A DNA stretch of 64,000 nucleotides from Balanoglossus misakiensis (Eukaryota; Animalia; Hemichordata). This document shows positions 32,801 to 64,000 of this stretch, in pieces. The first letter of the stretch is position 1; each line of letters begins with the position of its first letter. A program made the position numbers and the translations under genes. Under the pieces are notes generated by a model that was not told the DNA's origin, searched no databases, and worked only from the letters and a program-made list of their open reading frames with translations. Location of the stretch: NCBI GenBank assembly GCA_040954595.2, contig CM082593.2, forward strand, positions 9,309,200 through 9,373,199. The letters are read 5' to 3'.

Positions 32801-33952
32801 CCCCACGGGAATGAGTCATCTGGAAGGAGTACAAACTCAAGCACAGAAGTTCATCCAAAGTCAGGAATTTATTATTGAAGCATTCAACTGTGAAAGTTCA
32901 AAAGCAGACAGGCGTTTGCCATCACCACAATTACAACTCAGAAACAATGGCCCCGGCCCGGAATACATTATGAATCAAGGAACCTAGTGTAACACGAACA
33001 TAATTGCAAACACAAACATATACATTTCTTAATAAAAAAGATAAAACATGAATTAAAATTACTACATCCCAAATAGGTCCCATTGTACTCCTAATCGAAA
33101 TAAAACAGTAAATGGAATAAAAGTTCTGAATTTACACATTCCGTGTCCAATGCAAAAGAGCATGACTAGAGCACGCTTGAACAAAATTCCGATCGTATAT
33201 CTCAATTATTATAGTGGCTTTCTTTCTAAAACTAAAGGCAGCAAATATCGGTGATATTTAATGCCATTTTCTAGCTGCAAGGTCACATGGGAAATTTTGA
33301 GGGAATGGGCGTGACCCCACGATTATTACTCTCATGCAGAATCCATCAAAATCAAGCAAAGATTTCTCTGGGAACTGTTACAGAGAATCCACTGAAATAC
33401 TGTAAAGGATTCTATTGTGGATTCTGAAAGTGTTCCGTATTTTACAGAATCCACTATTGGATTATATGTGGATTCTCTGAGTATCCACGATGGATATCTC
33501 AGGATTCTACTGGATTCTGTAAGAATCCACGAAAGAATCCACAACAATCCTTGGTGGATTCAGGCTATTTCACACAGTGTTTGATGGTGTATTTAATATT
33601 AAGGCCCATTGAGGTGAATTTTGCACAGCAGTCTCCAGTCCAAAATACATAAATACATAAATGAACCTCTTATAACAATTGTCGTCATTTCCAGAACAGT
33701 GTTGCTTTTGATGTGAAATGTCAGTTGTTACAATTAAAAGTTCTCATTGAACATTGTGTTGGAATAAGTTGAGATAGGAATAAGCTTAACATAACACTGC
33801 TCTTAGTCAAAATTCGTCACCTTCCTAGCATGCAACATTGTGTCACCTACCTTGTCAAGTGATTTGAAGGTAAGACCACAATCAGATAAAAATGCAGAAA
33901 TTTGATAAAATAAAATGACCACAAGTTTGACAAATTTCATTACACTATCACG

Positions 33953-36900: not shown

Positions 36901-37054
36901 ACAGTTTATTGGGCATGTTCCTTATTAATTTTTTTACATTCCATATTTCTATATGGTGAGATCATATCTGATAGCAATGTCACCTGTAATTTTTATCTGG
37001 TGTGTCACTGTTTCCGCATAATCCTCAAATGGGACCACAGTGTCCTTGACGCTA
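33953..37054 (+). mobile_element. Helentron-associated non-autonomous element (HINE/DINE-1-like) hosting LINE copy 3
   Basis: Lies in T-runs; subterminal IR GGTCCCATT/AATGGGACC, 5' palindrome, (TGGA/TGTA)n microsatellite, internal TTGAAATTT repeats, 3' stem-loop AGTGTC-CTT-GACGCT. Confidence 0.75.
34417..36337 (+). mobile_element. CR1/L2-type LINE copy 3 (5'-truncated)
   Basis: RT with FADD and in-frame stops, same 3' UTR as copy 2, (TATC)n tail, CTAA at both junctions. Confidence 0.93.
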
Positions 37055-39544: not shown

Positions 39545-39696
39545 CAGTAAAACCTGTCAAAACCAAACCCTGTCTAATCTTGAAACCTGTCTATACTGAA
39601 CACCGTTTCAGTCCCTTCGACATAGAATCACATATTAAAAGAACCTTTACAATTTCTTCAGTGCCTTCAGTGTTCTGTTCAGACAGGTTTTACTGT
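39545..39696. mobile_element. Tc1/mariner-type MITE
   Basis: TIR CAGTAAAACCTGTC/GACAGGTTTTACTG followed by TA; related copy at 47095-47266. Confidence 0.75.
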
Positions 39697-41832: not shown

Positions 41833-42187
41833 AATATGGCGTTTACTGTAATTTGAATCATGGGAAAAAAAGCGCCAGGACCAACTTCCGCCCACCTTGG
41901 TGTGGGTGATACCATTTTCCGATTGGTATCACTGCATCACAAGCTAAGCGTATTTGCATATTTTTCATGGGTTATAGCTCATGAAAACTGTCAATAGATG
42001 ACAAATTTTCGACTTTGCTGATGATTGTTTATCAACTGATGCAAAGAACAAACAATAGCTATGAAAATACGCCTAGTCTGTCGCCCAGTGACACCAATCG
42101 GAGAATGGTATCACCCACACCATGGTGGGCGGAAGTTGGTCCTGGCGCTTTTTTTCCCATGATTCAAATTACAGTAAACGCCATATT
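41833..42187. mobile_element. MITE with ~105-bp TIRs
   Basis: AATATGGCGTTTACTGTAATTTGAATCATGGG.. mirrored at 42087-42187. Confidence 0.85.
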
Positions 42188-42220
42188 TAATTTAAGGAGA
42201 AACCAAAAATGTACAATTAA

Positions 42221-43015
42221 GATGGGTCCCTGGGATCTTTTTGCTCGTTGCTATGGGCCTTTATAGGACACTACACTCAATTTTGATCGAAACCGTTATG
42301 AACGTCCGACAAGGGGCTTGTAACTAGTTAAAAATACGCACGATTGTGTGCACACCCCCTGTCTGAGTATGTTTACGGCAGCTACCGCCCGGCCATAGGC
42401 CGCCACGCTAATACGGCAAAGCAGCGGTCAGCGATAGCGTGCGCGTCCTGTAACCACAGTAACTGGATCGAACGCTAAAAATCCAATGTTTTGTACACAG
42501 AGATTTTGTACCGTTCACAAAAATCCCTAAGGCTTTTTTCACAGGCGACGTAGGCCAGCCAAATTTGACCTGCTTGTTGAGAACGCACTTCTGCATAGTG
42601 TGACGGATCGTTTTTTCGGTTTTCGTCGTGTTAAGAAGCGATACCAGTGGAAGAGTGCGTCCAAAAACACCCAAAATCGATGACTTTTTCAGGTGTGGTA
42701 CGGGTATGCTGAAATCGTAGGATACAACGATAATATTCGAAAACAAAATCCGTCACGATCTTCCCTGGTTCAAGCAACTAATGAATACGTATCAAGTTCG
42801 TTTTTGAGGTCACGGAATAAAAAGCCTTAGGCTTTTGAAATTTGACCTAGCTAATTTGCATATCAATGGCGTCAGCGGGCGCGCGCTCACAATCGTGCAG
42901 ATTTTCAACTAGTTACCAGCCCCTTGTTAGACTCTGAAAACGGCTTAGTCCAAATCGGGGTGTAATGTCCTATAAAGGCCCATAGCAACGGGCAAAAAGA
43001 TCCCAGGGACCCATC
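42221..43015. mobile_element. TTAA-flanked non-autonomous DNA transposon (Kolobok-like)
   Basis: TTAA TSD; long imperfect TIRs GATGGGTCCCTGGGATCTTTTTGC..; RR terminus rather than the piggyBac CCY. Confidence 0.8.
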
Positions 43016-44410
43016 TTAAGAGAAATAACAACACGTTCAATTTTACTGATCATACATCTTTAACACAATTTCTCAAAGAATGTTTGGTAACTGGCTTTCA
43101 GCATCTTTGCTATTGTCAACGTTTTGCCATCTCTAAACATCATGAAGAAAATAGCTTAGAACGAGTACCCTCGTAAACCACTCAACATTTTGTGTGTTTG
43201 TTTGTGTGATACCATGAGGCGATCGATGATATGGTCAGGGCATTATGGCCAAAGGGGACCATACCTGTCCTTTCTAATAAGGGCTACACAAAGAGAACAT
43301 TGTTTCTTGTTATCTAAATTTGACTGCATGGGCGAATTACATTTTCAAGCTGTTACGTACCGATCCCAACATGAAAATTTAGCATTCAAGGCTTTTGAAT
43401 GAAATTAAGATGAAGAGAATTTAACTGTCCCTGCATACACCTATGCAACTATGAAGGACACTATGATTTCTGTGTTTATAATGATTCATCTTGGCGTGTA
43501 TGTGATCATGCACTATCCTAGTCTAGTATCTAGCCGTCAACTTTGCTTCCAAAAATAACATCTAGATCAAGCATGCCACTGGCCCAATAAAACCTGATAG
43601 CCAAGTGATCATAGGTTAGCATGACATTAAACTGAGTGCGGCTGAAACACTGTTCGCTTACAATCGACAATTGTGTCACCTTGAATGAACTCGCACAGGT
43701 CAGAAAGGTCATTGTCTGTTGATATGGTAATTGGTATCTATGTGGAGTGAGCCACTGAAGAGATGCTAATCAGACTCGAGAATGATTGACTATACAGTAA
43801 TACAGACATAGATTGAAAACTTTGGATTGTGATAATAAAATATGACGAGCAATTTATTACTAGTAAAAACTTTGTACGTCCAGCACAAACAACAAACAGT
43901 TTCCATGATGTCATTGTTAAAAGTTGTGTGCCCCACTCACAGTCTCTCGATCCAACACAGACACCCCACTCACAACTGACGGATTGACTGACTGACTGAT
44001 TCACCTTTCCACAGATGTTTGGACAGTCATTTGATGTCTTGTAGAACAAGTCAGATTCATGGACTAATATTTTAGGCGTACAAAACGCGCATAGCACAGA
44101 GCTGGTTTGAGCTGACTTGCAATTGGAGCTAACATGCAAATGTGAGCACACATATATTGCCGTGTCTACAAGTTGCTGTCTGCTGCAGTGTTGAATTTCA
44201 TCGACAATTTGTCAAGTTTTCACAACTTTAATTTTGCTGCGACACGTTCTGTCCGGGTGGTAATTTGTAAATTTTGTCGTTCAAATGTTTCAGTCCACTT
44301 GAACCAAGAAAAATCTCAGCAGACGGATATTTATTCTGAAACACCTGTTGATAGATTATGGGTGGTCAGGATGAGACGGACAGCGTAAATTCAGTTCAAA
44401 AGTAACTTAC

Positions 44411-44440
44411 CTGTGGGTCTTTATCTTCCGGGGAAGCCAT
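44411..44440 (-). CDS. Possible first coding micro-exon of an unidentified gene (MASPEDKDPQ)
   Basis: GCAATGG start context and consensus donor CAG|GTAAGT; downstream exons not found. Confidence 0.35.
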
Positions 44441-46172
44441 TGCATTGTTGTGTCATTAACATTGCCTTGAAATTCATTCACAAATTACACCATATCACGA
44501 TGTTGCAGTCTTGAGTTCAACTGGCAAGTTAGTTTTGTTGGGATTGCGTCGTCTAGCTAATCATTTGATTTTGAAGACTGTATCTGTATAAAAGTCAATA
44601 AGTAAATACAAGCTGCACTACAAAGAAAAATAAGCATCTATTTGTCAGAATCATGATGGCACACAGAGTATTTATGAAACTGTTATCAGTTTTGCAGATT
44701 CGATTGTACACAGCCATAAATGGCAAAACAATCCCTTCACAAAATGTAAATATAATGGGTCAAACAAAATATATTGCGGAAGCTGCAATTAATATTACAC
44801 AATTCTCATTCCACGTTCTCATGTTGGTTTTTGGCGACATTCATGTGATGGTAATGACTACTTGGTTTACTATTGCAATGTGAAGTTATTAAATTAATTT
44901 GCTTTTTCATAAATAGTGGAACACATAACTGAAGTTTTGTGGGCCAAACTTGACTTCATATCTGCACTCTTCATTCTGTCAACATTTAATTAATCCACAT
45001 TAATTGTAGAGTTATCGAGTCAGTCAGAGCAATTAGCACCCTTCCCAGGTACTCAAGCTTTAGACTGTCAGCAGTCATCACTCCCCAGGCACGATCACAA
45101 CTCCCAGCATTTTTGTAGCAATGATATAAAATTATTCATGTCATTGTTGTTAGTGAAACAAATTGTTTTTCGACCACATTCTTGAACACCAATTATTGTG
45201 TCTGTAATTAAGCTATTGTGTTATTTCTCACATACTTAAAACATAAATTGCTAGAGAAAAACTACAGAAGGAAAGTGTATACAGAATGACAAAAGGAAAA
45301 TATATGAATGTCGAAAGATTGTGAATTTCTACCCTCCCCTGGTGGTGATACACTCAGGGTCAATAGCTATCCATGCATGTTCCCAAAACTATCACAGAGA
45401 AGGGGACGCTTTTCGGTATCATCACTGTCTTTGAAAATGATAAAAAATGGTACATCTTATAACATGACAATGTTCAAATGAGATTTGAAATACGGATGGG
45501 TGTCTAAACCATAGTTCTTTATATTAGAAACATTGTTATTGCTTTATATTTGTATTATGGCATTAACTGTCCCAGTTTTTGTAAATTAGGAGCTAAGGGG
45601 GCTTTTGTCTCATTTTCTTCCATATATATATATATATTCAGACAGTGTTTTATTCAGGATGGTATCAGCAGGGGGTATATGTCCCCCTTCGCCAGAATAT
45701 TTGAGGGTGATTCCACTCTGGCAAGGGGGAATGTTATATCTTCAACATGTGAGTAACATCATTTTAAAGGGCACTCAGGTGCCCCTTTGACAATTAAATT
45801 TCCAGGGGGTACCAACACATCAATAGGAGGTGAATCCAAATTGTCTTTTTGTTGTTGAAAATTCCTGGAAATGTTATGGACAGGCAATGTCTATTTTCCC
45901 TGAGAGTGCCAGCACCGGTTTTGTATTTCTGTTTTCCTGTTGCCCTTTGGAGATCTTGCTGCTTTGTCTTGGAGAAGAGTGATTGTGTTGTCTTTGTTTT
46001 CTCACAACATGATGTCATCATTTTGTATTCAAATTGGCGTACATGATCATGTTTTGGCTTCATAATTTTTCATTAATGAAGATTTCAATGTTTTCCTTTT
46101 ATATTACTGCTGTTTATGATTGCATTTTGAGAATATTTTGATGAAAGAAATGTTGATTGTTGAATGTTACAG

Positions 46173-49100
46173 AATCTAATCAATGCCGCAGTGAAGGGTG
46201 ATGTTGCAAAGATTCAGTCGCTGATAGCTGATGGATATGATGTCAATGCAAGGAGTAAATACCCAGGACAGGTAAGTGTTCGTATTGACCAATGTTTTAT
46301 ACAGAGTCATCGCTCAGGGCTAGCGTTTGATATTTAATTTTTCACATGAGGTGCATGCAGGAACTTAAAAAAATTGTGTGAAACTGTATTTCAATTACGT
46401 GCAACAAAATAACGATAGACAGCCTGGGTTTTTGGTAAGTAACAACTTTTAATAGAAATATATTTTTAAAATAACGAATTTTGTTGAAATAAAATGGATT
46501 CTTGGTGCAAACAAGATATTCCTAATGTCAATTCTTCCACAAAGATAAACTTACAGACACGGAGAGGTCTGCTGCAAGCAGTATTTTTAGGGGTCAACTA
46601 TGGTGTTTCAAATTCTCTGTGGCAAGAACTAATTCTCAACTGGGGTGTTTTTCAAGGTCCATCGCACTATTCTGTTTGCAAATACATCATTGCAGTTTGC
46701 CACGCCGCTTTCTATAGCACCCCTGATGCTGTTACTGTAGTAGCACTAGCTGAACCCCTGAAATGTTCCAGGACCACTTCAACTGTTCACATGTAATATT
46801 TTATGCCGGCATTTGAGCAGAGACGTTTCAGAAACATTTCAATGGTTATGAGTGACTGGCTTTTCACACAACAGTAACACTGAATCAACTAGATATCTAT
46901 GAACTTCCAAAATACCACACACTCCCAAAATGATATCACAACACCACATTTAGATTGTGCAAAAACAGACCTACACTAGCCCACAAATATAAATAATCTC
47001 AATTCAGTGCAGACTTTTTCATCAACAGTTCCAGTTTTACCTAGTGTGAACATGGTATCAGTCTACAGTTTGGTTCAATGTGGTTCAACCACATACAGTA
47101 ATACCTGTCGAAATGGAACATGCCGTATCTGGAAAACTGTCTATAATGAACACATTTTCCTGTCCCCTTGACATAGAACCACGTGTTAAAAGAACCTTTA
47201 CAAACCAGAAACGTCTGTAAACTGAACAATTTCTTCTGTCCCTTTGGATTAGACGGGTTTTACTGTACATGTGTTTTGGTCATAGAGAATTGTCACTCAA
47301 CCTTAGAAAATACTATTATTATGATCTTTCAGAATCAAATCTATATCAGTCTATTACTGAAATAACACACCATCATAATCAAAACCATTATTACAATAGT
47401 GACTGAAGCTCATTGTGATGAAATTCCTAGAGTTTCCTCATCAAAAGATCAAGCAGTTGACTCACATGGCAAGTATCAGATTTGTGATGTCATTTTTATT
47501 CCAACATTAAACGTCTTTATTCCAGAATGATTCCACAGCATTGCATGCAGCGTCCTTCAAAGGTAAATTGGATGCTGTCAGGATGTTGATTAGCCATGGT
47601 GCAGATGTCAATGCGAAGGATGAGGTACGTGAACTGACTTATCACTTTATTATGGATAATGTGGCCACACAATTGGATAATAAAAAAATGCCTTTGAAAA
47701 AGACCTAATTACAACACTCTTATTTTCATCCAAAATTACTTTGCATGATCCAAATTCAATGGGAAGAAACAAGCTAACCCTGAACAAGAAGAGGGAAAGG
47801 CCAAAAAGTATTACCCATACTGATTTAGTTTTACTAACCATGATACCCTTGGGATCCAGCCATAGGAAGGACAGTGGGACACATTGCACTCTAAATTTAA
47901 CAATCTTTACAATTTAGCCAAAGATGTTGAACCATAGTGTATTTGACACATTTGTTCCGAATGAATAAATATGTTCCAGAAAGTAAATTTTGATGCATTT
48001 TTTTGTGTTTCACCAAAGTTAACAAATTTTTTTTTTTTTCAAGCCATCTCTGAAATTTTGCTGGCAATCTTTTTTTAAATCTTCCAGATCCCCTCCATCC
48101 TTAGTTAAGCTATGGAGTCAAAAACATCCAATGTTAAAAACTATATGACCAGTCAAAGCGTTTTCCTCGCTGTTAGAATCAATTGAGATTCTTCACCGTC
48201 ATTCTTTGATCTGTATTCATTTTAACAGTCGGCAATTTTCATTTTGTGTGTAGAAGGACTGTGCATTATCCTTTCAAATCAGTCAGTATGCCATTCTTGC
48301 TTGTTTTTTGCAATATGGCTGATACTTTTGATATTTGTTTATTTATTTGTAGGTTTGTTTGTTTGTTTGTTTGTTTAAAGAAACCTCATATTACATTTCA
48401 ATTTTTGTGACATTGTTCCCATGCTTCTCCTTCATTACTTACAGGATGGAGTCACCCCTTTGAATGATGCAGCAGGGTTTGGTGGTGAAGGCTGTGTCAG
48501 ATTGTTATTGGAACACAAAGCTGATGTTACCATACAAACCCAGGTAAATACCAACTTGACTTCTGCAGGTTAATCTATCAGTATGGAATGATTTATTCAT
48601 TCATTTTTTGTTTGTTTGTTTGTTTGTTTGTATGTTTTTTGTTTAAGGAAAATTACACATTACGTTTAATTTTTGTGACATTGTTCTCATGCTCCTCCTT
48701 CATTACTTACAGTGGGGAGACACCCCTTTGCACTCTGCAGCAAGGAGGGATGTTGGTGAAGGCCGTGTCAGATTGTTATTGGAACACAAAGCTGATGTAA
48801 CCATACAAAACAAGGTAAATACCAACCTGACTTCTGCAGGTAAATTCTAAAAGTATGAGCTTTCTCAATAGTGCCATTTCCTCTGTAGTTTTCTTAGTAA
48901 ATTGTGTCTGGGATACAATGTATATATTTGTCCATTGCCCTTTGAATCAAAACTACTCCCTCCATTGGTCAGGTGTTGTACAGATAGACTGATGACAGTC
49001 CATGCCAATCCTATCACAGAACGTATCAGATAGGGTGATTGTCTGTCGGCCTCCAGCATCTGCCAACTCCTGTCTGGTACCTAATACAATTCATCATAAG

Positions 49101-52100
49101 GAGGTGCCATATAATTTGTCACTGTCCTTTGAATCAAAACTACTTCCTCTCGGCCAGGTGTTGTCCAGACACAGACAAGTATTGATTCATTATGGTGATG
49201 TGATTGTCTCTCCTATATCTGAGACATTTGATCTCCACTGTGAGCAATTTGGAGTTATGAGAAAGGGGGATTGTCTCCAGCATCTGCCAAAAACTGTCGT
49301 GTTGAACATAAGGATGTTGTTGTTTATTGCATTGTTTATCGTCAATCTTTTGTGGTTTAAATAATAATCTCATTATTGGCACAGCGATTTCTGTCTGTCC
49401 TTCTGTAGACAGATTTTGTTCCACTCATATCTTGAGAGAAATTGAATCCAATGATATGAAATTTTGTATGTAGCATTGTTATGATAAGTTCTAGATCTGA
49501 TAAGATTTTGGTGGGTATGGCTTATTAATAAATTCTCCTTTGCATATTTGTGTGTGGTCGAACGTTAATTCACTACATACACATGTAGAATAACATAAAC
49601 AGTGTCTTGTATCAAACATAATTAATGGAAAAAGGGAAGCGAGAGAGAGAGAGACTTTGTCCCTTTAATATTCAGGAATTTACTTTTCTTGTATACGTAC
49701 ACTCTTATAATGATTGTAAATCTTGAGAATGGCTATCAAGTTGACAACCCTCGCACAAGTACATCATGTACATAAACAAAAATAGTCTGGTTTGTGGAGC
49801 CTCCTCCCTTTTTTACAGGAAGTACTTTCAAAATATGTTTATGCAATCAGTCCACACTCATGCTCAGTTTTGTGTCAGAATTATAGTCATAGCAACATTT
49901 TGAGTAAGACTTTACCAGAAGAACTTGTTTTCATTGCGGCTCTGATTGGGGCCGTTTTAAAAAGGGGTTTGTTTGGCAACTTTTAGGACCGAAGGACGGA
50001 TGCGCAGCCATGGTCACATCACACATGTCAAGTTGGGGACTTGCTGGGGGCAGGGGTGCTTGTTGACGGTGCCGAGAGGAGTCGGCCAGTTTTAGCTTGT
50101 ACTTCAGGCCGAATAGCACAGTGCCAACCCAATTTACCTTTTATAAACTTTATAAAATATAATACATTTTAACATTAAATTGTTCAGTCGGATGATTTTT
50201 TTCATCATTCTGAGCAACACAGCGGCAGCATTTGGACTGCTCTTTCTCTTGGAAATAGCTCAAGCTTATAAAACATGAGGTCTGTGCGGCTCCACTCCTC
50301 AGCTTGTCATCACTGTCTGTCACTTACCCAATCATTTCAAAGGGGGTGATCAAGATGGCCAGAACAGCAAGTTTTAACCAACCAGGTTCCAGAACCTGAG
50401 AGAAGGTGCTAAAAGCATGCAATAGATATATTGATGAGATAAACATTGGGAACAATAGGATTAAGGGAAGTGTGACTGGTCCAATCTGTTCTGTTTTAGT
50501 GTGGGGCACGGCTGGAATGGTTACACAAATGTCCTTGAAAGTTAGTGCTACTGTGGCTTCCAATGTTATCTCTTATGAAGAGTTTTGATAATTTTGTTTG
50601 TTCTTTATATTACATGAAAAGAATGACTGCATTCATTGCATTTAATTTTGTTTGCCACACATTCCCATTGGCCACAGTGTCCACTGAAGTCTTTCTTTGG
50701 TTATTAGACTTTTTGATGCAGTGCGATGGAGAAAGGGAATCAGTGTTAACTTTCTTCAGATGGTTTTTTTTTTGGTGAAATTCAAGTTTTTTTTATTTAA
50801 ACACTATTTCTACAAATAACGAGTGACACCATTGCACAACTCTACTTGATATTGTTGGACCACTCAGTAGAAATTTATTTTAATGATGATTGATTTATCC
50901 CTTGTCACATACAATTTCTCTGTTATTTCCCCTTTGATCGACATCGTTCAGTCTGCACAGCTTGGCTACTTTGTGCTGAGAACAGTCTGATGCCCTCCTA
51001 CAGGAAATAAACATAGTTTGGTTAGCTCAGATGTTTGATCTGTTTCCACATAAATCTCCACATATCTCAAATTTGTCATCATATTGGAGATGAGATGTGA
51101 TTATTCAAAATTCTTCTGACAATTCTACTAAATGTCACTGTAGTTGTTTGCTAAATCTTCTTCTATATTGTGCAGGTTGCAAAAATAAATTGGTCCCATT
51201 CAGGAAATGTTCACTAACATCACATCACTGTCAGTTTTTTGATAGAAAATCATAAATAAAGTTCAGTTTAAAATTGGTGTATTGGTTATCCGTAATGTTA
51301 TCTGTTTTGCAAGTTGTCAAATTTGAGTTTGTTTGTGAATTATTTATAGTAACTTTTCTTTCTGTATCAACTGGCAGATATTTTGTCAGAATTCTTTTAG
51401 CTCGTTAAAATGCATGTATAAAACTGAATTACACATCTTGTGTGTAGAGTCGATACTGTTTCTGTTCAAATGCCATTTACTGTTGGTTAATATTATCCAC
51501 AAGGGAGTTTGCGATTATTTGTCGTTTGTGTGTTTGTTCGATCGTTCATTTTAACAAAATAACCTCATGTTACATTTCATTTTTCTTGACATTCTCATCA
51601 TGCTCCTCCTTCATTACTTACAGAATGGAGACACCCCTTTGCATTATGCAGTAAGAGGGTGTCGTGGTGAAGGCCTTGTCAGATTGTTATTGGAACACAA
51701 AGCTGATGTGACCATACCAAACAAGGTAAATACCAACATGACGTCTGCAGGTTAATTCTATCAATGCGGATATATTCATTCATTTGTTTGTGTCTTTGTC
51801 TATTTGTTTGTTTGTTTGTTAGTTTGTTTGTTTGTTTAAGGAAATTTCACATTACATTTCAATTTTGTGACATTATATATATATATTTATTTCACTATCT
51901 TAGGCCACCGGCCTTCATACAATAATTAAACTGATAAATATACAGACATGCAGTGGGGCTTACATTGACATAATAGATACAATGCCATCAAAACAGAAAT
52001 AGACGTGTATGCGATCAAGTGTCCTGCAATAAATTATCTCTTAACTTAAAACTATAATAAATAAACTTTGCCAGATTAACTAAGGTGTGGGGGTTTTGAG

Positions 52101-55100
52101 AGTTTAACAGGCTAGAGTATTTCTTCAATGAGGGTTGCTGATAGTGGAATGGTGAGAGAAAACGTGTTCTTAATTCCTTGTAGATGGGGCAAATAAGACA
52201 AATGTGAAATTCCGTTTCAACTTGCTGTAAAATACAAAACTGACAAATTCTGTTATCTCTTGTTAACCCTTCAAAGCGGCCACTCTCTATTAATAGTTTG
52301 TGGTTTGAAATTCTAAATTTACAAAGGGTGACTCTAAATAGCTCAATATTTACACAATTCAAATATTTTTCAAAAGACAAATTATTTTTAAATAGACGAT
52401 AAGAATCCATCTTAGTGGAATTGACCAATTCACTGTGCCATACCTGCTGACCAATATCCAGGCATCTTTGTTTAAAATTTGAAAGAAAAAGACACTCGTT
52501 TCCCACAGCCTGTGACTCCCAGGCAATACCAAAACCAAAATAAAATAAAAGGTCTTTGACCTTTTTGGCCCAACAATTATAACCTTTGTCTGCCATTTCA
52601 CGTTGGTAGTCATAACATTGCTTAGTATATCTATAATTTTCGCTATGAATTAATTTTACCCAGTATTTAATAATGCGTGGTAGACGAAGCGTTTTCAAAG
52701 ATTGTCTGCCCAGTTCCCCCAAGACAGCTAAATTGGTTGACCTTGAACTAACCATGAGTATATATTTACAGAAATCTATTTGAATTTTTTCAACATCCTT
52801 ACCCTCATGAAAACCCCATACTTCACTACCGTACATAAGTATTGGAAGAATTTTGCAGTCGAAAATTCGTAGAGCTAGCTCTATGTCTATGTTTTTAAAC
52901 TGACTCAGATATCTTTTAATATTGTACATAGCTTTTTTCCCTTGTTTGGCAAGGATTTCTTGAGCCTTTGTCCAGATTCCTGAACAAGACAAGGTCAGAC
53001 CGAGGTAGTTAAAATACGGTACTGTCTGAACCTGGACCCCATTCAATGTCCATCTCTCGTAATTTTTCAACCTTCCCCCACTCCTGAAGACATCAATTTT
53101 TGTCTTGGACCCATTAACTTTTAGTTTCCATCTGTTAGATAGATACACGATTTGTTAAGCTGTCTTTGTAGTCCAATTACTGAATTACTTACAATTGTTA
53201 AATCGTCAGCAAAGCAAAGATACAAGAGCTTCAAAATTCCTACATAAACACCATTAAACATGCCATTTTTGAGGGTTTCGCCAAGATCATCGATGAAAAG
53301 ATTAAATAATAATGGGGACAAAACAGATCCTTGTTGCACACCATAAGTACACTGGAAAAAGTTTGTAATCCCATGTGGTGTTCGTACACATGATTTCACC
53401 GATTTGTACATAGATTTTAACACTATAAGCATTTTACTCTTCATTTCACGTTTCAGTAATTTATAAAACAAGGCGTTGTGATCAATTCTATCGAAAGCTT
53501 TCTCGAAATCAATGAATGCACCATAAAAACGTGATTTGTGTTTGGATAAGTATTTCCATATTGTAGTATCCAAAATAAAAATGTTGTCAATTGTGCTGCG
53601 GTTCTTCCTAAAACCAGCCTGAGCTTCAGTGATTGGCGAATTAAGTTCAACAAAGTCATTTAAACGCTTGAACATCACATTGCAAAAAATCTTACCAATA
53701 ATAGGAAGAAGAGTTATTCCCCTATAGTTACACACAGAGTCATGTACCCCTTTCTTAAAAAGAGGGATAATCATACCATTAACCCACTCTTCTGGGAAAA
53801 TACCTGAGTTGAGAACACTATTGAAAAAGTTATACAAAATTAATCTAAATTCTTGGCATGAATACTTAAAGAAATCCGCAGGTATGCCATCAACGCCTGC
53901 AGCTTTACCCAATTTCAGGTTATTAATTGCACTATCTATTTCTTCAAGTGATATTTCACTATCCAGAACACTGGTATCAACGTCTGTGCCTACATCCGTA
54001 TATACAGGATCATGAAATGAAAACGAATTGTTTACAAACTCGTCGACTTCCACATAAAAATCTTGGAAATCGTCGTGTAAATTGCCAGGAGTATTAAATA
54101 AAACAGAAAAGTAATCAACCCATTCCTTAGCAGTAATTGAATCAGGGGGACCCGGGGTATAAGGTCTCAACATGGACCAAAAACGCTTAGAATTCGGGTC
54201 CTTGGCGGCTTCGGCAAAATTACGTTGTTTCAATATATCATAGTTCCTTTTCTTTTCTTTCAGCAGGTTGTGATAATCTCGCTGGATGGATTTATAGACA
54301 CCGAATGAAATAGGGGTGGGACTATATTTATGGTTTCTAAGGACATTCTTAACTTTGGCTTTAAATTCACGGCATTCATCATCCCACCAATTATTCGTCT
54401 TTTTCACTCGTCTACCCATGCCACCTGTTTTCATACATGAAAGTGAGTTCCAAATTGTATCCCTCAGACAAAGCGCAGCATTGTCTATTTCCCCTAAAGA
54501 GAGAAGCCTATTGATTTCAGACACATGTGAGTTTGAAGATGCGCTGTTCCAAAAGTTGTTAACTACATTGAGTAACTTATTATCCCATTTACAAGTAAAT
54601 ATAGAAGAGTTATTAACATTGTTATAATCAGACGTAAGACTTGTTCTCTCTTGGTGAGACAGGTCTAATTTAAATATCAGTGGTTGGTGGTCTGATTCAA
54701 CCCTAGAATCAATATACATATCTGTTAACAGGTGAAGATCATGACAAGATAACAAAAGGTAATCTATCACACTGCCCCCGCTTTTGGAAAGAAATGTATA
54801 CTCACCACTTCCATGATTCTTAAAAAATCTCCCATTAACAATTTTAAAATTTGTGCTGTGACAAAAATCCAGTAACCGTTTACCATAATCATTAACTGAT
54901 GAATCTCTTGACTCTCGTATTGGCAAAGGTGGATCTACGTCACTGTCATCCACTGGCAAACACCTGGAATCCCATTCGATAGTATCAGAGACACAGCCTG
55001 TGCGGGCATTAAAATCGCCGCATAAAATTACAGGCGAGCCTTCGTGAATGGTTGAATATTTTGCTAATTCATTTTCTAACAATTGGAACATTTCTGGATT

Positions 55101-58100
55101 TGCATATTGAGATGACCCTTCTGGTGAGAAGTAGACAACACACATTAACAATGAATTAATTTGAAAGTTATCTTTGAGAAACAGCTTTACCCATAGAAAA
55201 TCCTCGGACAAACTTGGCAGCTGTTGGAAGCTTTTGCATATTGAGTTCTTGACAAAAACTGAAATACCCCCTGAAAATCTTCCTAAATGCATAATCTTTT
55301 TTCTAGCAAGGTTGATAGAAGTGTAATTGGGAATAGAAAACTGATCTGAAGTACAAGCCCACGTTTCCGTCAGGCAAATTACACCAAAATCCGATTTTGT
55401 CAAAAAAGACATGAAATCCGTGTCAAGAAATTTAGATTTTAAACCATTAATGTTCCAGCAAATAAACTGAGTGTCAGTATCTTTGCCATGTTCAGAATAT
55501 AAGCTGGTGTTACTCGTGTCTGCATCATACCGTGTATTGCGGCTTCGGCCTGACCCCTAGCGATCGCGACGATTTCTGTAGAAAGGGCGAATGTCATTCA
55601 GCGAATCGTCGAAAATATATAGAGTTCCATCGATCTTTAGCTTGTCATAATTCAAAAATGCAAGTTTACCTTCTTCTCTTGCTTTCTGTAGAAACTGTCC
55701 AAGCTTCCTCCTAGTCTCCCGTACCCTTGGAGTAAAGTCTTCGGAAACCCGAAAGTTTGTGTTCTTGAGACTCCCTCGTGCTTTCTGTAAGACTTGTTCC
55801 CGTTGTTTAAAGCGTGTGAATTTGGCAACAATAGGCTGGGGATGACCTTTCGCATTAGATAGACGATGAACCCCGTCGAATTCAAAGCTGCTACCATCTA
55901 GGTCTAGTTTCTCCGACAAAAATGTCTTCACTTTGTTTTCGGTATCGTCCCAAGTTTCATTAGGCGACTGTTCGATATTGTGGAATAACAGATTATCCCG
56001 TTTCATCCTACCTTTGACATCGTCGAGTTCCCTTAACACCGTGCTTATATTGTCTTTTAAATGCTTGTTCTCTTCCGCTAATCGAGCAGTTTCCTGGTAA
56101 TTTTCTCTCAGTTCGCTCCGCAAACGATTCACTTCATCCTTCAACTCGTCAACTCTATCATGAACATCGTGAACCGAAGTATCAATCTGTGTTTTCAGGT
56201 CGACTTTGAGTTCTCGAATTTCGCGTATGACATCGGCTAGACTGGTTTCTTTTGGGGCCTCCGGTTCGCCCACTGTTGGAGTCGAATTTGACCTGAGTTC
56301 TCTTTGAGTACCAGTACATTCTGTCAATTTTACCTGCTTAACCGCTTTTGGAGGTCCTGGGTTTAATTCAATGTCTCCACTCAAAGTCAAAAGAAGGGGT
56401 ACGAATACTGTGTTGCCTTGCAGACCTGCTGTTGCAACGGCATTGGTAACCATACGCTGTTCAAAAACCATGACATGTTCGTATTCCATAAAACTGTTGA
56501 TATCTTCATTGGTTGAAAAGCTGGCTAGGTTGTCCATTTCAATTTTAGATAGCAGACAACCAACCAACAACGTCAGTTCAATAATGAAAACTGTTGCTGT
56601 AGTTCTGCACAGATAGTCAAGAACAGGTGGCCAACGTGAATACCTTGTCCGTTGCGACACGTCACCGCTATGACTTTCGACACACTTCCAGGAATTTGGT
56701 TGTGAAAACCCGCCGATGCGTCCTCTCCAAAGTTGCAAACTGATACCCATCTTTGTAGTTTGATATTACCCTTCGCTTAGACTTGGAGTTACTGTGAATC
56801 TTGAAGTTTTAACGGGATATTTTGAAAAAGTTATACGAGCAGGCAGGAGACGATGCTGACACGTCCACTCCAATATGGCGCCATTATTCTCATGCTCCTC
56901 CTTCATTACTTACAGACAGGAGACACCCCTTTGCATTATGCAGCAAGGAGGGATGGTGGTGAAGGCCTTGTCAGATTGTTATTGGAACACAAAGCTGATG
57001 TGACCATACAAAACGAGGTAAATACCAACCTGACTTCTGCAGGTTTATTCTATCAATGCGGATATATTTATTCATTTGTTTGTGTCTTTGTCTATTTGTT
57101 TGTTTGTTTGTTTGTTTGGTTAAGGAAATTTCACATTACATTTCAATTTTGTGACATTATTCTCATGCTCCTCCTTCATTACTTACAGACAGGAGACACC
57201 CCTTTGCATTATGCAGCAAGGAGGGATGGTGGTGAAGGCCTTGTCAGATTGTTATTGGAACACAAAGCTGATGTGACCATACAAAACAAGGTAAATACCA
57301 ACCTGACTTCTGCAGGTTTATTCTATCAATGCGGATATATTTATTCATTTATTTGTTTGTTTGTTTGTTTAAGAAAATTTCACATTAGATTTCAATTTTT
57401 GTGACATTATTCTCATGCTCCTCCTTCATTACTTACAGGATGGAGACACCCCTTTGCATGATGCAGCAAGGAGGGATGATGGTGAAGCCCTTGTCAGATT
57501 GTTATTGGAACACAAAGCTGATGCTAACATACGAAACAAGGTAAATACCAACCTGACTTCTGCAGGTTTATTCTATTGATGCGGATATATTTATTCATTT
57601 ATTTGTTTGTTTGTTTGTTTATGGAAATTTCACATAATATTTCAATTTTTGTGACATTATTCTCATGCTCCTCCTTCATTACTTACAGGATGGAGACACT
57701 CCTTTGCATTATGCAGCAAGGAGAGTTGGTGGTGAATGCCTTGTCAGATTGTTATTGGAACACAAAGCTGATGCTAACATACAAAACAAGGTAAATACCA
57801 ACCTGACTTCAGCAGGTTTATTCTATCACTGCGGATATATTTATTCATTTATTTGTTTGTTTGTTTGTTTGTTTAAGGAAATTTCACATTAGATTTCAAT
57901 TTTTGTGACATTATTCTCATGCTCCTCCTTCATTACTTACAGGATGGAGACACCCTTTTGCATTATGCAGCAAGGTTTCGTGATGAAGGCCGTGTCAGAT
58001 TGTTATTGGAACACAAAGCTGATGCTAACATACAAAACAAGGTAAATACCAACCTGACTTCTATAGGTTAATTCTGAAAGTATTGAAATATTTTTTTGTT

Positions 58101-61100
58101 TTTTTTTGTTTAAGGAAATTTCACATTATATTTCAATTTTTGTGACATTATTCTCATGCTCCTCCTTCATTACTTACAGGATGGAGACACTCCTTTGCAT
58201 TATGCAGTAAGGGATGGTGATGAAGGCCATGTCAGATTGTTATTGGAACACAAAGCTGATGCTAACATACAAAACAAGGTAAATACCAACCTGACTTCTA
58301 TAGGTTAATTCTGAAAGTATTGAAATATTTTTTTGTTTTTTTTTGTTTAAGGAAATTTCACATTATATTTCAATTTTTGTGACATTATTCTCATGCTCCT
58401 CCTTCATTACTTACAGGATGGAGACACTCCTTTGCATTATGCAGTAAGGGATGGTGATGAAGGCCATGTCAGATTGTTATTGGAACACAAAGCTGATGTG
58501 ACCATACAAAACAAGGTAAATACCAACCTGACTTCTGCAGGTTTATTCTATCAATGCGGATATATTTATTCATTTATTTGTTTGTTTGTTTGTTTATGGA
58601 AATTTCACATAATATTTCAATTTTTGTGACATTATTCTCATGCTCCTCCTTCATTACTTACAGGATGGAGACCCTCCTTTGCATTATGCAGCAAGGAGGG
58701 TTGGTGGTGAATGCCTTGTCAGATTGTTATTGGAACACAAAGCTGATGCTAACATACAAAACAAGGTAAATACCAACCTGACTTCAGCAGGTTTATTCTA
58801 TCACTGCGGATATATTTATTCATTTATTTGTTTGTTTGTTTGTTTAAGGAAATTTCACATTAGATTTCAATTTTTGTGACATTATTCTCATGCTCCTCCT
58901 TCATTACTTACAGGATGGAGACACTCCTTCGCATGATGCAGCAAGGAGGGATGGTGGTGAAGGCCTTGTCAGATTGTTATTGGAACACAAAGCTGATGCT
59001 AACATACAAAACAAGGTAAATACCAACCTGACTTCTGCAGGTTAATTCTGAAAGTATTGAAATATTTTTTTGTTTTTTTTTGTTTAAGGAAATTTCACAT
59101 TATATTTCAATTTTTGTGACATTATTCTCATGCTCCTCCTTTATTACTTACAGGATGGAGACACTCCTTTGCATTATGCAGCAAGGGATGGTGATGAAGG
59201 CCATGTCAGATTGTTATTGGAACACAAAGCTGATGTTTACATACAAAACAAGGTAAATACCAACCTGACTGCTGCAGGTTTATTCTATCAGTGCGGATAT
59301 ATTTATTCATTTTTTTGTTTGTTTGTTTGTTCGTTTACGGAAATTTCACATTATATTTCAATTTTGTGACATTATTCTCATGCTCCTCCTTCATTACTTA
59401 CAGGATGGAGACACTCCTTTGCATTATGCAGCAAGGAGGGTTGGCAAAGGCCTTGTCAGATTGTTATTGGAACACAAAGCTGATGCTAACATACAAAACA
59501 AGGTAAAGACCAACCTGACTTCTGCAGGTTAATTCTATCAATGCGGATATATTTATTCATTTATTTGTTTGTTTGTTTGTTTATGGAAATTTCACATAAT
59601 ATTTCAATTTTTGTGACATTATTCTCATGCTCCTCCTTCATTACTTACAGGATGGAGACACTCCTTTGCATTATGCAGCAAGGAGGGTTGGTGGTGAATG
59701 CCTTGTCAGATTGTTATTGGAACACAAAGCTGATGCTAACATACAAAACAAGGTAAATACCAACCTGACTTCAGCAGGTTTATTCTATCACTGCGGATAT
59801 ATTTATTCATTTATTTGTTTGTTTGTTTGTTTAAGGAAATTTCACATTAGATTTCAATTTTTGTGACATTATTCTCATGCTCCTCCTTCATTACTTACAG
59901 GATGGAGACACTCCTTCGCATGATGCAGCAAGGAGGGATGGTGGTGAAGGCCTTGTCAGATTGTTATTGGAACACAAAGCTGATGCTAACATACAAAACA
60001 AGGTAAATACCAACCTGACTTTTGCAGGTTAATTCTGAAAGTATTGAAATATTTTTTTGTTTTTTTTTGTTTAAGGAAATTTCACATTATATTTCAATTT
60101 TTGTGACATTATTCTCATGCTCCTCCTTTATTACTTACAGGATGGAGACACTCCTTTGCATTATGCAGCACGGGATGGTGATGAAGGCCATGTCAGATTG
60201 TTATTGGAACACAAAGCTGATGTTTACATACAAAACAAGGTAAATAGCAACCTGACTGCTGCAGGTTTATTCTATCAGTGCGGATATATTTATTCATTTT
60301 TTTGTTTGTTTGTTCGTTTACGGAAATTTCACATTATATTTCAACACTCCTTTGCATTATGCAGCAAGGAGGGTTGGCAAAGGCCTTGTCAGATTGTTAT
60401 TGGAACACAAAGCTGATGCTAACATACAAAACAAGGTAAAGACCAACCTGACTTCTGCAGGTTAATTCTATCAATGCGGATATATTTATTCATTTATTTG
60501 TTTGTTTGTTTAAGGAAATTTCACATTAGATTTCTATTTTTGTGACATTATTCTCATGCTCCTCCTTCATTACTTACAGGATGGAGACACCCTTTTGCAT
60601 TATGCAGCAATGTTTCGTGATGAAGGCCGTGTCAGATTGTTATTGGAACACAAAGCTGATGCTAACATACAAAACAAGGTAAATACCAACCTGACTTCTA
60701 TAGGTTAATTCTGAAAGTATTGAAATATTTTTTTGTTTTTTTTTGTTTAAGGAAATTTCACATTAGATTTCAATTTTTGTGACATTATTCTCATGCTCCT
60801 CCTTCATTACTTACAGGATGGAGACACTCCTTCGCATGATGCAGCAAGGAGGGATGGTGGTGAAGGCCTTGTCAGATTGTTATTGGAACACAAAGCTGAT
60901 GCTAACATACAAAACAAGGTAAATACCAACCTGACTTCTGCAGGTTTATTCTATCAATGCGGATATATTTATTCATTTATTTGTTTGTTTGTTTGTTTAT
61001 GGAAATTTCACATAATATTTCAATTTTTGTGACATTATTCTCATGCTCCTCCTTCATTACTTACAGGATGGAGACACTCCTTTGCATTATGCAGCAAGGA

Positions 61101-62114
61101 GGGTTGGCAAAGGCCTTGTCAGATTGTTATTGGAACACAAAGCTGATGCTAACATACAAAACAAGGTAAAGACCAACCTGACTTCTGCAGGTTAATTCTA
61201 TCAATGCGGATATATTTATTCATTTATTTGTTTGTTTGTTTAAGGAAATTTCACATTAGATTTCTATTTTTGTGACATTATTCTCATGCTCCTCCTTCAT
61301 TACTTACAGGATGGAGACACCCTTTTGCATTATGCAGCAAGGTTTCGTGATGAAGGCCGTGTCAGATTGTTATTGGAACACAAAGCTGATGCTAACATAC
61401 AAAACAAGGTAAATACCAACCTGACTTCTATAGGTTAATTCTGAAAGTATTGAAATATTTTTTTGTTTTTTTTTGTTTAAGGAAATTTCACATTATATTT
61501 CAATTTTTGTGACATTATTCTCATGCTCCTCCTTCATTACTTACAGGATGGAGACACTCCTTTGCATTATGCAGTAAGGGATGGTGATGAAGGCCATGTC
61601 AGATTGTTATTGGAACACAAAGCTGATGCTAACATACAAAACAAGGTAAATACCAACCTGACTTCTGCAGGTTTATTCTATCAATGCGGATATATTTATT
61701 CATTTATTTGTTTGTTTGTTTGTTTATGGAAATTTCACATAATATTTCAATTTTTGTGACATTATTCTCATGCTCCTCCTTCATTACTTACAGGATGGAG
61801 ACACTCCTTTGCATTATGCAGCAAGGAGGGTTGGCAAAGGCCTTGTCAGATTGTTATTGGAACACAAAGCTGATGCTAACATACAAAACAAGGTAAATAC
61901 CAACCTGACTTCAGCAGGTTTATTCTATCACTGCGGATATATTTATTCATTTATTTGTTTGTTTGTTTGTTTGTTTGTTTAAGGAAATTTCACATTAGAT
62001 TTCAATTTTTGTGACATTATACTCATGCTCCTCCTTCATTACTTACAGGATGGAGACACTCCTTCGCATGATGCAGCAAGGAGGGATGGTGGTGAAGGCC
62101 TTGTCAGATTGTTA
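46173..62114 (+). CDS. Spliced ankyrin-repeat gene, one repeat per phase-0 exon (partial; start and 3' part not identified)
   Basis: AG/GT-bounded 99- or 102-nt exons at 46173-46271, 47526-47624, 48445-48543, 48713-48814 and 51624-51725, then 22 units from 56916; GDTPLHYAA..LLLEHKADANIQNK consensus. Confidence 0.9.
47095..47266. mobile_element. Tc1/mariner-type MITE (intronic)
   Basis: TA-CAGTAATACCTGTC..GACGGGTTTTACTG-TA; shares AAAAGAACCTTTACAA with the 39545 copy. Confidence 0.7.
52015..55556 (-). CDS. LINE ORF2 (APE endonuclease, RT, C-terminal CCHC), one frameshift near 53150
   Basis: WNINGL, LTETW, GDFNAR, SDH, QAGFR, GVQQGSVLSPLLF, FADD and CQFC..EFH..C. Confidence 0.92.
55557..56750 (-). 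CDS. LINE ORF1 (2A-like peptide, coiled coil, L1-type RNA-binding domains)
   Basis: 397 aa; LLLTLSGDIELNPGP; RDNLLFHNIE, VHRL..PQPIVAKF and RVSEDFT. Confidence 0.92.
   Translation of the reverse strand: MGISLQLWRGRIGGFSQPNSWKCVESHSGDVSQRTRYSRWPPVLDYLCRTTATVFIIELTLLVGCLLSKIEMDNLASFSTNEDINSFMEYEHVMVFEQRMVTNAVATAGLQGNTVFVPLLLTLSGDIELNPGPPKAVKQVKLTECTGTQRELRSNSTPTVGEPEAPKETSLADVIREIRELKVDLKTQIDTSVHDVHDRVDELKDEVNRLRSELRENYQETARLAEENKHLKDNISTVLRELDDVKGRMKRDNLLFHNIEQSPNETWDDTENKVKTFLSEKLDLDGSSFEFDGVHRLSNAKGHPQPIVAKFTRFKQREQVLQKARGSLKNTNFRVSEDFTPRVRETRRKLGQFLQKAREEGKLAFLNYDKLKIDGTLYIFDDSLNDIRPFYRNRRDR
56888..62114 (+). repeat. Tandem array of 22 exon+intron units (~237-273 bp)
   Basis: Exon starts at 56916, 57189, 57439, 57689, 57943, 58180, 58417, 58664, 58914, 59154, 59404, 59651, 59901, 60141, (60344, acceptor deleted), 60580, 60817, 61067, 61310, 61547, 61794 and 62049. 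Confidence 0.95.
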
Positions 62115-62115
62115 T

Positions 62116-64000
62116 AGACCTTATTCACGCGTCAGCCATGTTGATACCAAAACGAGGCTCTAAACGCTACGATACGTCATGTAAGGTCAACGACCGTAGC
62201 CAGGGAGCACAATGGCCGCACTTAAAAGAGCAGACGACAATTCGCCGGCTCAGATTTACTCGTCGTGGACGAGTAATCTGGCAAACGTGCCCGACATTTC
62301 TTTTGGCGACGTCAGTGTGATTGTGAAAGCCGTATCAAAAGCTCCTAAGAACAATTTAAGAAAAGGCTACAAGTTCTTCCATGGATCGTACGTACACGAT
62401 ATGAAAAGTAAGTAGACGTCTGATCGTACCTGATTTGTTTACATTTTTTTGTAGAGGCGCAAGTGTCATGTATCATCCCAAAAATATTGTTAATTGTTGT
62501 TTTTTATCCTTTGGGAAAGTTTAAAATCGAAATGCTGCAATTACAATAGTTTTTTTAGCATATTTATATATATTTTTAATAAGTTGTAATCTGATACAAA
62601 CGACGACAACAAAAACAAAGGCGCCGAAAGGGCCGGAAGCCTATTCGTCGGCCGTCCGTTTTTCTTGTGCGGATCGAAGAAACATGACTGCGGAATCTCA
62701 TTTCAATGTGTCCATTGTGATGTAGTGCGTTACTTCTGAAAATTGATATTAATTTCGACGGAAAAATGTTTTAGCCGTGTGCGCGGGCAATAGTTGTAGG
62801 CAAAGGCACGCGATACGATCGCTTCGCGATGGGCTGCAGTAACTGTATGGAGTTCTTCCATACAGTTACTGCAGCCCGATCGCGAAGCGATCGTATCGCT
62901 TGCCTTTGATTGTAGGTAAATATCCTGATGTTTATTTTTTTCAATTTCAGTAAAAATGTTTGAGGAAGGGTGTCATGCCAAGTGTTTGTGTTATCGTTCC
63001 ATGAAAAAGAATGAACCACCTCATAGATTGATGGTAAGTTATTGAAGTACTACTAGTAGTCCATTGCTCGCGGTCGTAGTTGTTCACGTCTATTTCATGC
63101 GTTCTCACGCAAATATTTTATGCAAATATTAATCACGTAGAACCCATTAGACTACGGTCACTCCACACATAACAAAGCAAATCGGGCTTCAGAATCATTT
63201 CCTTGATGATAACACAAGGATTTGCTACTTTGTGTGTGTACAAATGAGTAATGTGTATTTGGATCAAACCATTGAATAAAAAGGGAACAGCTGTGAAACA
63301 TTACCGGTTACCAACTTTTTTTTTCAATTTGATATTACAGATAAGTTTGTTGAATGACAAATCAATCAGGCAACACCAGTGTTCGTGTACAGCAGGCAAA
63401 GGTATGTGCAACCACATATCTGCTATGCTGTACCAGATTGCCCATTACAAGACCATGGGACTAAAATCAATACCAGAAATAGTGTGCAAAACTTCGGCAC
63501 CTCAACAATGGCATATACCACCTAGGACTCATGGCATCAAACCAAGGGATGTATCCAGCGTGAAGTTCATCAAGCCCAAGTCCGAAGGTTCTAATTCATG
63601 TATAAAGAGTACGCTCTATAATCCCGTAAACAGTGACTTTCCTGATTTTAATTTAATGTCTAATTTGCATAAATCTTTATCAGTGTCACACAAATCAGCT
63701 CAAATTTTTCAAGTTCTTCCTGACAGCTTTGACAACTTACAAATGACAGCTACATCATATGGTAATGTAATAACAGGCAGTGTGCTTTCTTACCAATTGC
63801 CAAAACCACAATCTGATGGATCAGTAATTAAACTCCCCCAACTTGTATCTTGTCCAAAATTGCCCCTGAATAATTATCATATCCAGTTCGATTATAATGT
63901 CGTTCTTAGTGCTCCCCAACAGCAGTATTTTCAAGGTATTCAATTATCTTTGGAAGAGTGCCATGAAATTGAAATGCTGACAAGAAAGCAAAGTGAATGC
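62116..64000 (+). mobile_element. ISL2EU (PIF/Harbinger-related)-like DNA transposon interrupting ankyrin exon 22; runs off the window
   Basis: Abrupt junction TTGTTAT|AGACC in mid-exon; encodes a spliced SWIM/YqaJ-type protein. Confidence 0.7.
62212..64000 (+). CDS. Transposon SWIM zinc-finger / YqaJ-like exonuclease protein (exons 62212-62407, 62951-63033, 63341-64000)
   Basis: Phase-compatible GT-AG exons: RKGYKFFHGSYVHD, CYRSMKKNEPPH, CSCTAGKGMCNH (SWIM), KTSAPQQWHIP and IEMLTRKQS (start of the YqaJ region); missed by the ORF track. Confidence 0.8.

What the first reader, a model, noticed from the sequence alone, without database searches (positions are those of the whole stretch)
48445..62114. 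One-exon-one-ankyrin cassette array with hypervariable binding residues: candidate diversifying receptor (natural DARPin-like library)
Seen: about 25 related units, each a 99- or 102-nt phase-0 exon encoding one ankyrin repeat, separated by near-identical ~140-170-nt introns. The segment VRLLLEHKAD and the splice flanks are essentially invariant. Changes cluster after TPLH: YAARRDGGEGL, DAARRDDGEAL, YAARRVGGECL, YAARFRDEGR, YAAMFRDEGR, YAVRDGDEGH, YAARDGDEGH, YAARRVGKGL, YAVRGCRGEGL, including 3-nt indels that keep frame. Known: residues at the end of helix 1 and in the beta-turn form the ankyrin binding face randomised in DARPins, and one-exon-per-repeat shuffling is described for LRR/TPR receptors in the brown alga Ectocarpus. 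Inference: identical introns allow unequal crossover or conversion, and phase 0-0 lets any exon subset splice in frame. Together these would generate variable binding surfaces, possibly for an innate immune sensor (NLR, ROCO or death-domain type).
Basis: partly seen in the sequence, partly recalled or inferred. Interest (0 to 1): 0.88.

Follow-up and report, generated by a model that had tools for sequence, protein, structure and literature searches.

The report
Reshuffling one-exon-per-ankyrin array, invertebrate gene
A gene, likely from a marine invertebrate, carries 25 near-identical ankyrin binding modules, each on its own exon, that have been copied and recombined with one another at the DNA level, and it likely encodes the variable sensor end of an immune or cell-death protein, although selection for diversity is only suggested and this copy may be broken by a transposon.

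Summary
The array is real: 25 exon+intron units, 23 of them intact phase-0 exons of 99/102 nt encoding one ankyrin repeat each (15 distinct peptides). DNA recombination between units is shown (mosaic units, incompatibility rising with distance, a 987-nt higher-order duplication). Protein-level constraint is shown (codons 18-27 invariant; variants more ankyrin-tolerated than random, p=0.002). Diversifying selection is only suggested: omega about 3.7 in codons 8-17 (post hoc), but about 1 overall, and exons are no more diverse than introns. 'DARPin-like' fits only partly: the beta-turn is nearly invariant and buried position 17 varies. The closest protein by the two N-terminal repeats is an acorn-worm ANK-ROC-COR protein; the C-terminus lies outside the window. 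No RNA data were available, so splicing is untested. It works like fungal highly conserved ankyrin NLR repeats and brown-algal one-repeat-per-exon ROCOs. The scan noted similar arrays on other DNA before (a microbial eukaryote, a fungus-like eukaryote).

The parts
46173..46271 (+). Upstream ankyrin exon A, N-cap-like, 99 nt, phase 0-0
   Evidence: AG/GT flanks; no Pfam hit at E 0.01; ankyrin-like by Atlas features; best match of 230 proteins is residues 11-37 of P0143
47526..47624 (+). Upstream ankyrin exon B, 99 nt, phase 0-0, divergent from the array
   Evidence: Pfam Ank E 3.1e-10; 61% identical to residues 43-75 of P0143
48445..48543 (+). Array unit 1 exon, 99 nt
48713..48814 (+). Array unit 2 exon, 102 nt; followed by a 2,809-nt intron with array-type ends and dispersed-repeat matches inside
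51624..51725 (+). Array unit 3 exon, 102 nt
51877..56881 (-). Near full-length LINE in intron 3 (ORF1 55557-56765; endonuclease/RT frame 53121-55556 continuing in another frame 52015-53154), 6-nt target duplication CATTAT, acceptor of exon 4 retained
56916..60239 (+). Units 4-17: 14 intact exons starting at 56916, 57189, 57439, 57689, 57943, 58180, 58417, 58664, 58914, 59154, 59404, 59651, 59901, 60141, with 138-171-nt homologous introns
58503..60314 (+). Higher-order duplication of four units, period 987 nt (58503-59327 vs 59490-60314, 99.3% over 825 nt)
60344..60435 (+). Unit 18: exon remnant lacking the acceptor region and first 7-8 nt (about 50 nt deleted); would be skipped in frame
60580..61892 (+). 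Units 19-24: six intact exons starting at 60580, 60817, 61067, 61310, 61547, 61794
62049..62117 (+). Unit 25: intact acceptor, 22 codons, then in-frame TAG at the junction with foreign sequence
62115..64000 (+). Left part of a likely DNA transposon; frame 63248-64000 has a weak SWIM match and relatives of which 3 of 5 carry PF09588 (YqaJ, name recalled); runs off the window
   Evidence: start does not fit the ISL2EU termini given in PMC4482050, so group not assigned

Best explanation
This is a tandem array of exon-plus-intron units, each encoding one ankyrin repeat, that has expanded and been reshuffled by DNA recombination between units while the repeat framework stayed under protein-level constraint; it is likely the N-terminal, variable binding domain of an ANK-ROC-COR/death-type innate-immune or cell-death protein. 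Shown: duplication and mosaicism of units, phase-0 tolerance of exon loss, conserved helix 2, replacement-rich changes at the end of helix 1, the turn and the start of helix 2. Inferred: unequal crossover or conversion in the germ line changes repeat number and order between alleles, so adjacent repeats present new combinations of side chains; diversifying selection on codons 8-17 is likely but not established; the ROC-COR end is inferred from one homologue. This particular allele would need to skip exon 25, or it is truncated to ankyrin repeats only.
For: Recombination: four-gamete-incompatible site pairs 5 of 119 within 15 nt, 9 of 171 at 16-50 nt, 106 of 305 at 51-200 nt (rho 0.39); units 9/10/23, 12/16/20 and 14/21/24 share the variable segment but carry different 3' ends or introns; 987-nt duplication at 99.3%. 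Constraint: 10-codon invariant run, 0 of 20,000 permutations; 34 observed residue variants are more ankyrin-tolerated than random missense changes, p=0.002, p=0.012 without codons 18-27; no stop or frameshift in 23 exons. Variability profile matches the mean of 21 independent highly conserved ankyrin arrays, rho 0.62, p=0.0003. Diversification: pN/pS 3.9 in codons 8-17 vs 0.71 elsewhere; omega 3.7 (GY, 2dlnL 7.4) or 2.9 (MG, 2dlnL 4.5); a-priori binding positions of PMC8415598 carry 0.71 vs 0.30 replacements per site, p=0.0085, all 23 exons. Family lead: P0143/P0267, Ptychodera flava ANK-Roc-COR, is the top match of 230 for exon A (z about 4) and for A+B, and shares Lys at position 25 (3 of 39 proteins) and variable positions 8-17.
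Against: Minimum-change counts give 35 replacements per 80 sites vs 10 silent per 22 sites, omega about 1; the 11-codon cluster is not significant after allowing for window choice (p=0.145); in units 4-24 alone binding positions are not enriched (p=0.21). The invariant block lacks silent changes too, which local homogenisation could also explain. An intron stretch (pi 0.20) is more diverse than the exon hot spot (pi 0.136). Recombination inflates tree-based omega tests (noted in PMC4986451). 8 of 23 exons have an altered TPLH, including L6S, seen in 1 of 2,609 natural repeats; H or R at core position 17 in 9 of 23 exons. By framework identity P0143 ranks only 10th of 155; the top is an abalone caspase-nSTAND3-ANK protein. 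No C-terminal domain is in the window.
Confidence: 0.5

Rival explanations
1. Accordion expansion without diversifying selection: a functional ankyrin scaffold whose units duplicate by unequal crossover, with changes simply drifting at tolerant positions and long arrays buffering weak repeats.
For: Overall omega about 1 and window-corrected clustering p=0.145; exon pi equals intron pi; variability also tracks generic ankyrin tolerance, rho 0.47; the variable segment is a purine-rich triplet run (AGG AGG GAT GGT GGT) where slippage would give 3-nt indels, and CGT/CAT/TGT at codon 17 fits CpG decay (sequence; inference).
Against: In codons 8-17 of units 4-24, 15 derived alleles at 22 first/second positions vs 2 at 11 third positions and 26 at 111 intron sites; conserved Gly13 takes four residues; omega 2.9-3.7 there.
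Confidence: 0.28
2. A dead or dying gene: the array kept amplifying as a minisatellite after function was lost.
For: Stop at exon 25, dead exon 18, two expanded introns, L6S in four copies, no clear ATG exon on the + strand in 30000-46172; absence of nonsense changes is not significant alone (2.2 expected, P0=0.10).
Against: [quoted passage not shown]
Confidence: 0.11
3. A splicing-based repertoire: identical splice sites let cells include different exon subsets, giving many isoforms from one allele.
For: All exons phase 0-0 with near-identical splice sites; exon 25 would have to be skipped for a longer product; alternative splicing is reported for brown-algal ROCO LRR exons (PMC11378527).
Against: No docking/selector-type inverted repeats among the 25 longest pairs shown of 193; introns of 138-171 nt are too long to force mutual exclusion sterically (general knowledge); the two recorded isoforms of the acorn-worm homologue differ by 92 aa in the Roc region, not in the repeats; many exons are exact duplicates, which adds little to a splicing repertoire.
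Confidence: 0.08
4. Assembly artefact inflating copy number.
For: Raw reads could not be checked.
Against: Longest exact repeat is 401 nt in a 5.2-kb block; the 987-nt duplicate differs at 6 of 825 nt and by a deletion; units are mosaics.
Confidence: 0.03

Closest known systems
Fungal NLRs with high-internal-conservation (HIC) ankyrin repeats, e.g. Podospora Pa_3_8560 (PMC4986451; PMC13449251)
   Same: Near-identical ankyrin repeats (identity to column majority 0.87, above the 0.7 cut-off), repeat mosaicism, replacement-rich variable sites, nearby transposons
   Different: Repeats here are separate exons homogenised with their introns; array appears N-terminal with no NTPase upstream; beta-hairpin nearly invariant; repeat-number polymorphism and positive selection not demonstrated
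Brown-algal LRR-ROCO and NB-ARC-TPR genes with one repeat per exon (PMC3341825; PMC11378527)
   Same: One repeat per symmetric exon, inactivated exons inside the array, probable ROCO context
   Different: Ankyrin rather than LRR/TPR, phase 0 rather than phase 2, no reverse-strand repeat exons in the window, likely animal host, splicing untested
Ptychodera flava 'death-associated protein kinase 1-like' ANK-Roc-COR protein XP_070546714/5 (P0267/P0143)
   Same: N-cap repeat and second repeat match exons A and B in order and spacing; LLEHKA-type helix 2; variable positions 8-17
   Different: Its repeats are older (internal identity 0.65); its exon structure was not available; orthology not shown
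Designed ankyrin repeat proteins (DARPins)
   Same: Fixed framework with variable surface residues; ungapped alignment to DARPin repeats
   Different: Of the six randomised positions (recalled; 33, 1, 3, 11, 12, 31 in this numbering) only 12, and 11 through an indel, vary widely; variation extends to 13-17 including a core residue; only 15 peptide types

Membership tests
Ankyrin repeat (PF00023) | 33-residue repeat above Pfam cut-off | tested here: met
   4 of 4 array exons and exon B above 21.1 bits; exon A no hit
HIC repeat arrays | Repeat similarity to consensus of 0.7 or more | tested here: met
   0.87 mean, 0.71 minimum, own Psim-like measure, not T-REKS
HIC repeat arrays | Recombination or shuffling between repeats | tested here: met
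HIC repeat arrays | Repeat-number polymorphism between individuals | not testable with these tools
   no genome held, no runs listed
HIC repeat arrays | Positive selection on concave-face residues | tested here: inconclusive
   p 0.007-0.06 uncorrected, 0.145-0.21 in stricter tests
NLR (STAND NTPase, repeats C-terminal) | NACHT/NB-ARC/nSTAND domain upstream of the repeats | tested here: not met
   0 tblastn hits at E<0.01 outside ankyrin exons with 232 proteins, some with NACHT or nSTAND3; a distant or finely split domain could be missed
ROCO proteins | Roc-COR tandem in the same gene | not testable with these tools
   gene runs into a transposon at the window end; only a homologue shows Roc-COR
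Brown-algal-type exon-shuffling receptors | One repeat per symmetric exon | tested here: met
Brown-algal-type exon-shuffling receptors | Alternative splicing of repeat exons | not testable with these tools
   no RNA holder listed
DARPin-like binding library | Variation confined to beta-turn and helix-1 surface on an intact core | tested here: not met
   beta-turn nearly invariant in units 4-24; core 4-7 and 17 vary
ISL2EU transposons (element at 62115) | GG termini and A|AT|T target | tested here: not met
   junction reads TTGTTA-TAGACC vs PMC4482050

The most novel reading that the evidence does not exclude
An invertebrate cytosolic ANK-ROCO receptor gene builds a repertoire of binding surfaces from interchangeable one-repeat exons, by frequent recombination between homogenised introns (allelic, possibly somatic) plus exon skipping, under diversifying selection: an animal, ankyrin-based counterpart of the brown-algal exon-shuffling receptors.
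Probability: 0.15. Interest if true: 0.85.

Novelty: new variant of a known kind. Interest (0 to 1): 0.5.

Why it matters
Repeat shuffling with diversifying selection is described for fungal NLRs and brown-algal ROCOs, and HIC repeats are rare in animals (0.8% of ANK/TPR/WD repeats, PMC4986451). An animal case in which whole exon-intron units are the shuffled currency gives a clean test system: introns record the recombination history apart from protein selection, and each repeat can be typed on long reads across individuals, tissues and transcripts. It would also point to kinase-less ANK-ROC-COR proteins as overlooked invertebrate sensors. If variation is neutral, it is an ordinary accordion expansion.

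Tried and rejected
No whole genome is held. No RNA holder was listed for 44000-51900, so no reads were laid; this is no evidence on expression. Exact 30-nt core pattern in metagenome contigs: 0 matches; P0267 in metagenome contigs: 175 pattern matches, 0 confirmed. Word-based search with one exon gave 80 generic ankyrin proteins; LINE ORF2 gave 31 hits at 39% identity or mostly less with no organism named. Rfam: 0 matches in the window. No further ankyrin exon on either strand outside those listed. No docking/selector pairing among the 25 longest inverted repeats shown. No structure was predicted, because a spliced multi-repeat protein is not an unchanged stretch of the window; surfaces were mapped with Table 1 of PMC8415598. 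PMC8683736 passages did not give DARPin position numbers, so those are recalled. In one search the upstream intron flank of unit 4 included 2 LINE bases, slightly inflating the neutral proxy (conservative). Minimum recombination intervals were 3 or 5 (indel columns counted). Ten literature searches listed no paper on an animal one-exon-per-ankyrin recombining array; the library lacks most subscription papers and no supplements were read.

Full report
Observation. The core motif occurs 25 times between 48445 and 62114. Twenty-three units are intact exons of 99 or 102 nt with AG before, GT after and phase 0 at both ends; they fall into 17 nucleotide and 15 peptide types. Pfam Ank matches all 4 array exons scanned, and codon number in a 99-nt exon equals ankyrin position, TPLH being 4-7, with the exon border in the beta-turn. 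Twenty-one of 24 intervals are homologous introns of 138-171 nt. Two older ankyrin exons lie upstream (46173-46271, 47526-47624).

How the array arose (shown). A four-unit block is duplicated at period 987 nt with 99.3% identity, and the longest exact repeat is 401 nt. Incompatible site pairs rise with distance, 5 of 119, 9 of 171 and 106 of 305, the signature of recombination rather than recurrent mutation. The same variable segment is joined to different 3' ends and introns in units 9/10/23, 12/16/20 and 14/21/24. The 5' units are the most divergent, as expected at the edge of an array under unequal exchange (inference).

Constraint (shown, with a caveat). Codons 18-27 have no change of any kind; 0 of 20,000 permutations gave such a run. 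The 34 residue variants score better against 2,740 natural repeats than random missense changes (p=0.002; 0.012 without codons 18-27; the natural set came from a search with this array's own profile). The per-position variability follows that of 21 other internally conserved ankyrin arrays, out of 39 scorable among 150 hits (rho 0.62). So the gene was probably translated while the repeats diverged. The lack of silent changes in the invariant block leaves room for local homogenisation.

Diversifying selection (suggested only). For: pN/pS 3.9 in codons 8-17 against 0.71 elsewhere; omega 3.7 or 2.9 with 2dlnL 7.4 or 4.5 against omega=1; a-priori concave plus 13-14 positions 0.71 vs 0.30 replacements per site, p=0.0085. 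Against: 35 replacements per 80 sites vs 10 silent per 22 overall; best-window p=0.145; p=0.21 in units 4-24; binding positions vs silent sites p=0.17; exon and intron pi are equal and one intron stretch is more diverse than the hot spot; recombination biases tree tests.

Where the changes sit. By Table 1 of PMC8415598 (passages), positions 1, 8, 11, 12 are concave and 13-14 are enriched in contacts; these vary. But positions 2, 3 and 32 are invariant and 1 and 33 nearly so in units 4-24, and core positions vary: TPLH is altered in 8 of 23 exons and position 17 is H or R in 9 of 23, residues seen in 5 and 22 of 2,694 natural repeats. 'Natural DARPin library' overstates the match.

What protein. 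No domain other than ankyrin was found in the window with 232 query proteins, so an upstream NLR NTPase is unlikely. Among 230 ankyrin proteins, the best match for exon A and for A+B is P0143, whose repeats 1 and 2 align in order and which carries Roc and COR; sources name it Ptychodera flava DAPK1-like, and its C-terminal part resembles Roc-COR-Death clusters of molluscs, sponges and chordates. This is a lead, not orthology: by framework identity it ranks 10th of 155, behind an abalone caspase-nSTAND3-ANK protein with 0.86 internal identity and a brachiopod ANK-TIR protein. Those hits show that internally conserved ankyrin arrays recur in marine-invertebrate signalling proteins. The host is likely such an animal (3 of 5 relatives of the transposon frame are named Branchiostoma).

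Comparison. PMC4986451 (passages) and PMC13449251 (passages and section 12) describe near-identical ANK repeats with repeat-number polymorphism and positive selection in fungal NLRs, and note such repeats in animals. PMC3341825 (passages) and PMC11378527 (passages) describe one-repeat-per-exon shuffling, inactivated exons, positive selection and alternative splicing in brown-algal ROCOs. One ankyrin repeat per 99-nt exon is also common in ordinary animal ankyrin genes (recalled). PMC4482050, PMC8195603 and PMC8683736 were seen as passages. The combination here, an ankyrin exon-intron unit as the recombining currency in a likely animal gene, was not listed in ten searches, while the scan's own notes report related arrays in a microbial eukaryote and a fungus-like eukaryote.

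Verdict. Real feature, DNA-level reshuffling shown, framework constraint shown, diversifying selection and immune role likely but unproven, splicing untested, and this allele possibly truncated. New variant of a known kind; interest 0.5.

Noticed in passing
window 44440-44411 (-): A 10-codon ATG exon with a consensus phase-0 donor (MASPEDKDPQ, CAG|GTAAGT) on the opposite strand 1.7 kb upstream of exon A; the homologue P0143 also has 10 residues before its first repeat. Either a head-to-head neighbour or an inverted first exon; no comparable exon was found on the + strand.
   Followed up: partly
window 8874-14374 (+): Gypsy-type LTR retrotransposon with open gag (RRM, PNMA, zinc knuckle) and pol (RT, RNase H, integrase) frames.
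   Followed up: partly
window 27590-36114 (+) and 24687-25843 (+): Several broken copies of another LINE family (ORF1 with FP-like domain, endonuclease, RT), partly repeated.
   Followed up: partly
window 2210-3007 and 3919-4303: Two 69-nt minisatellite arrays in opposite orientation with open frames.
   Followed up: no
window 22128-22442 (-): 104-aa frame whose end resembles a C-type lectin segment (recalled motif); no Pfam hit.
   Followed up: partly
window 62801-62908: Nested palindromes (33-nt and 21-nt arms) inside the transposon-like element.
   Followed up: no
proteins P0119, P0155, P0128: Abalone caspase-nSTAND3-ANK and nSTAND3-ANK and brachiopod ANK-TIR proteins with internally conserved ankyrin arrays (0.75-0.86); worth checking for the same exon-unit design.
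   Followed up: partly
window 45001-52000: CpG observed/expected 0.19-0.46 across the ankyrin gene, lower than the window mean of 0.66, as in methylated invertebrate gene bodies (recalled interpretation).
   Followed up: no
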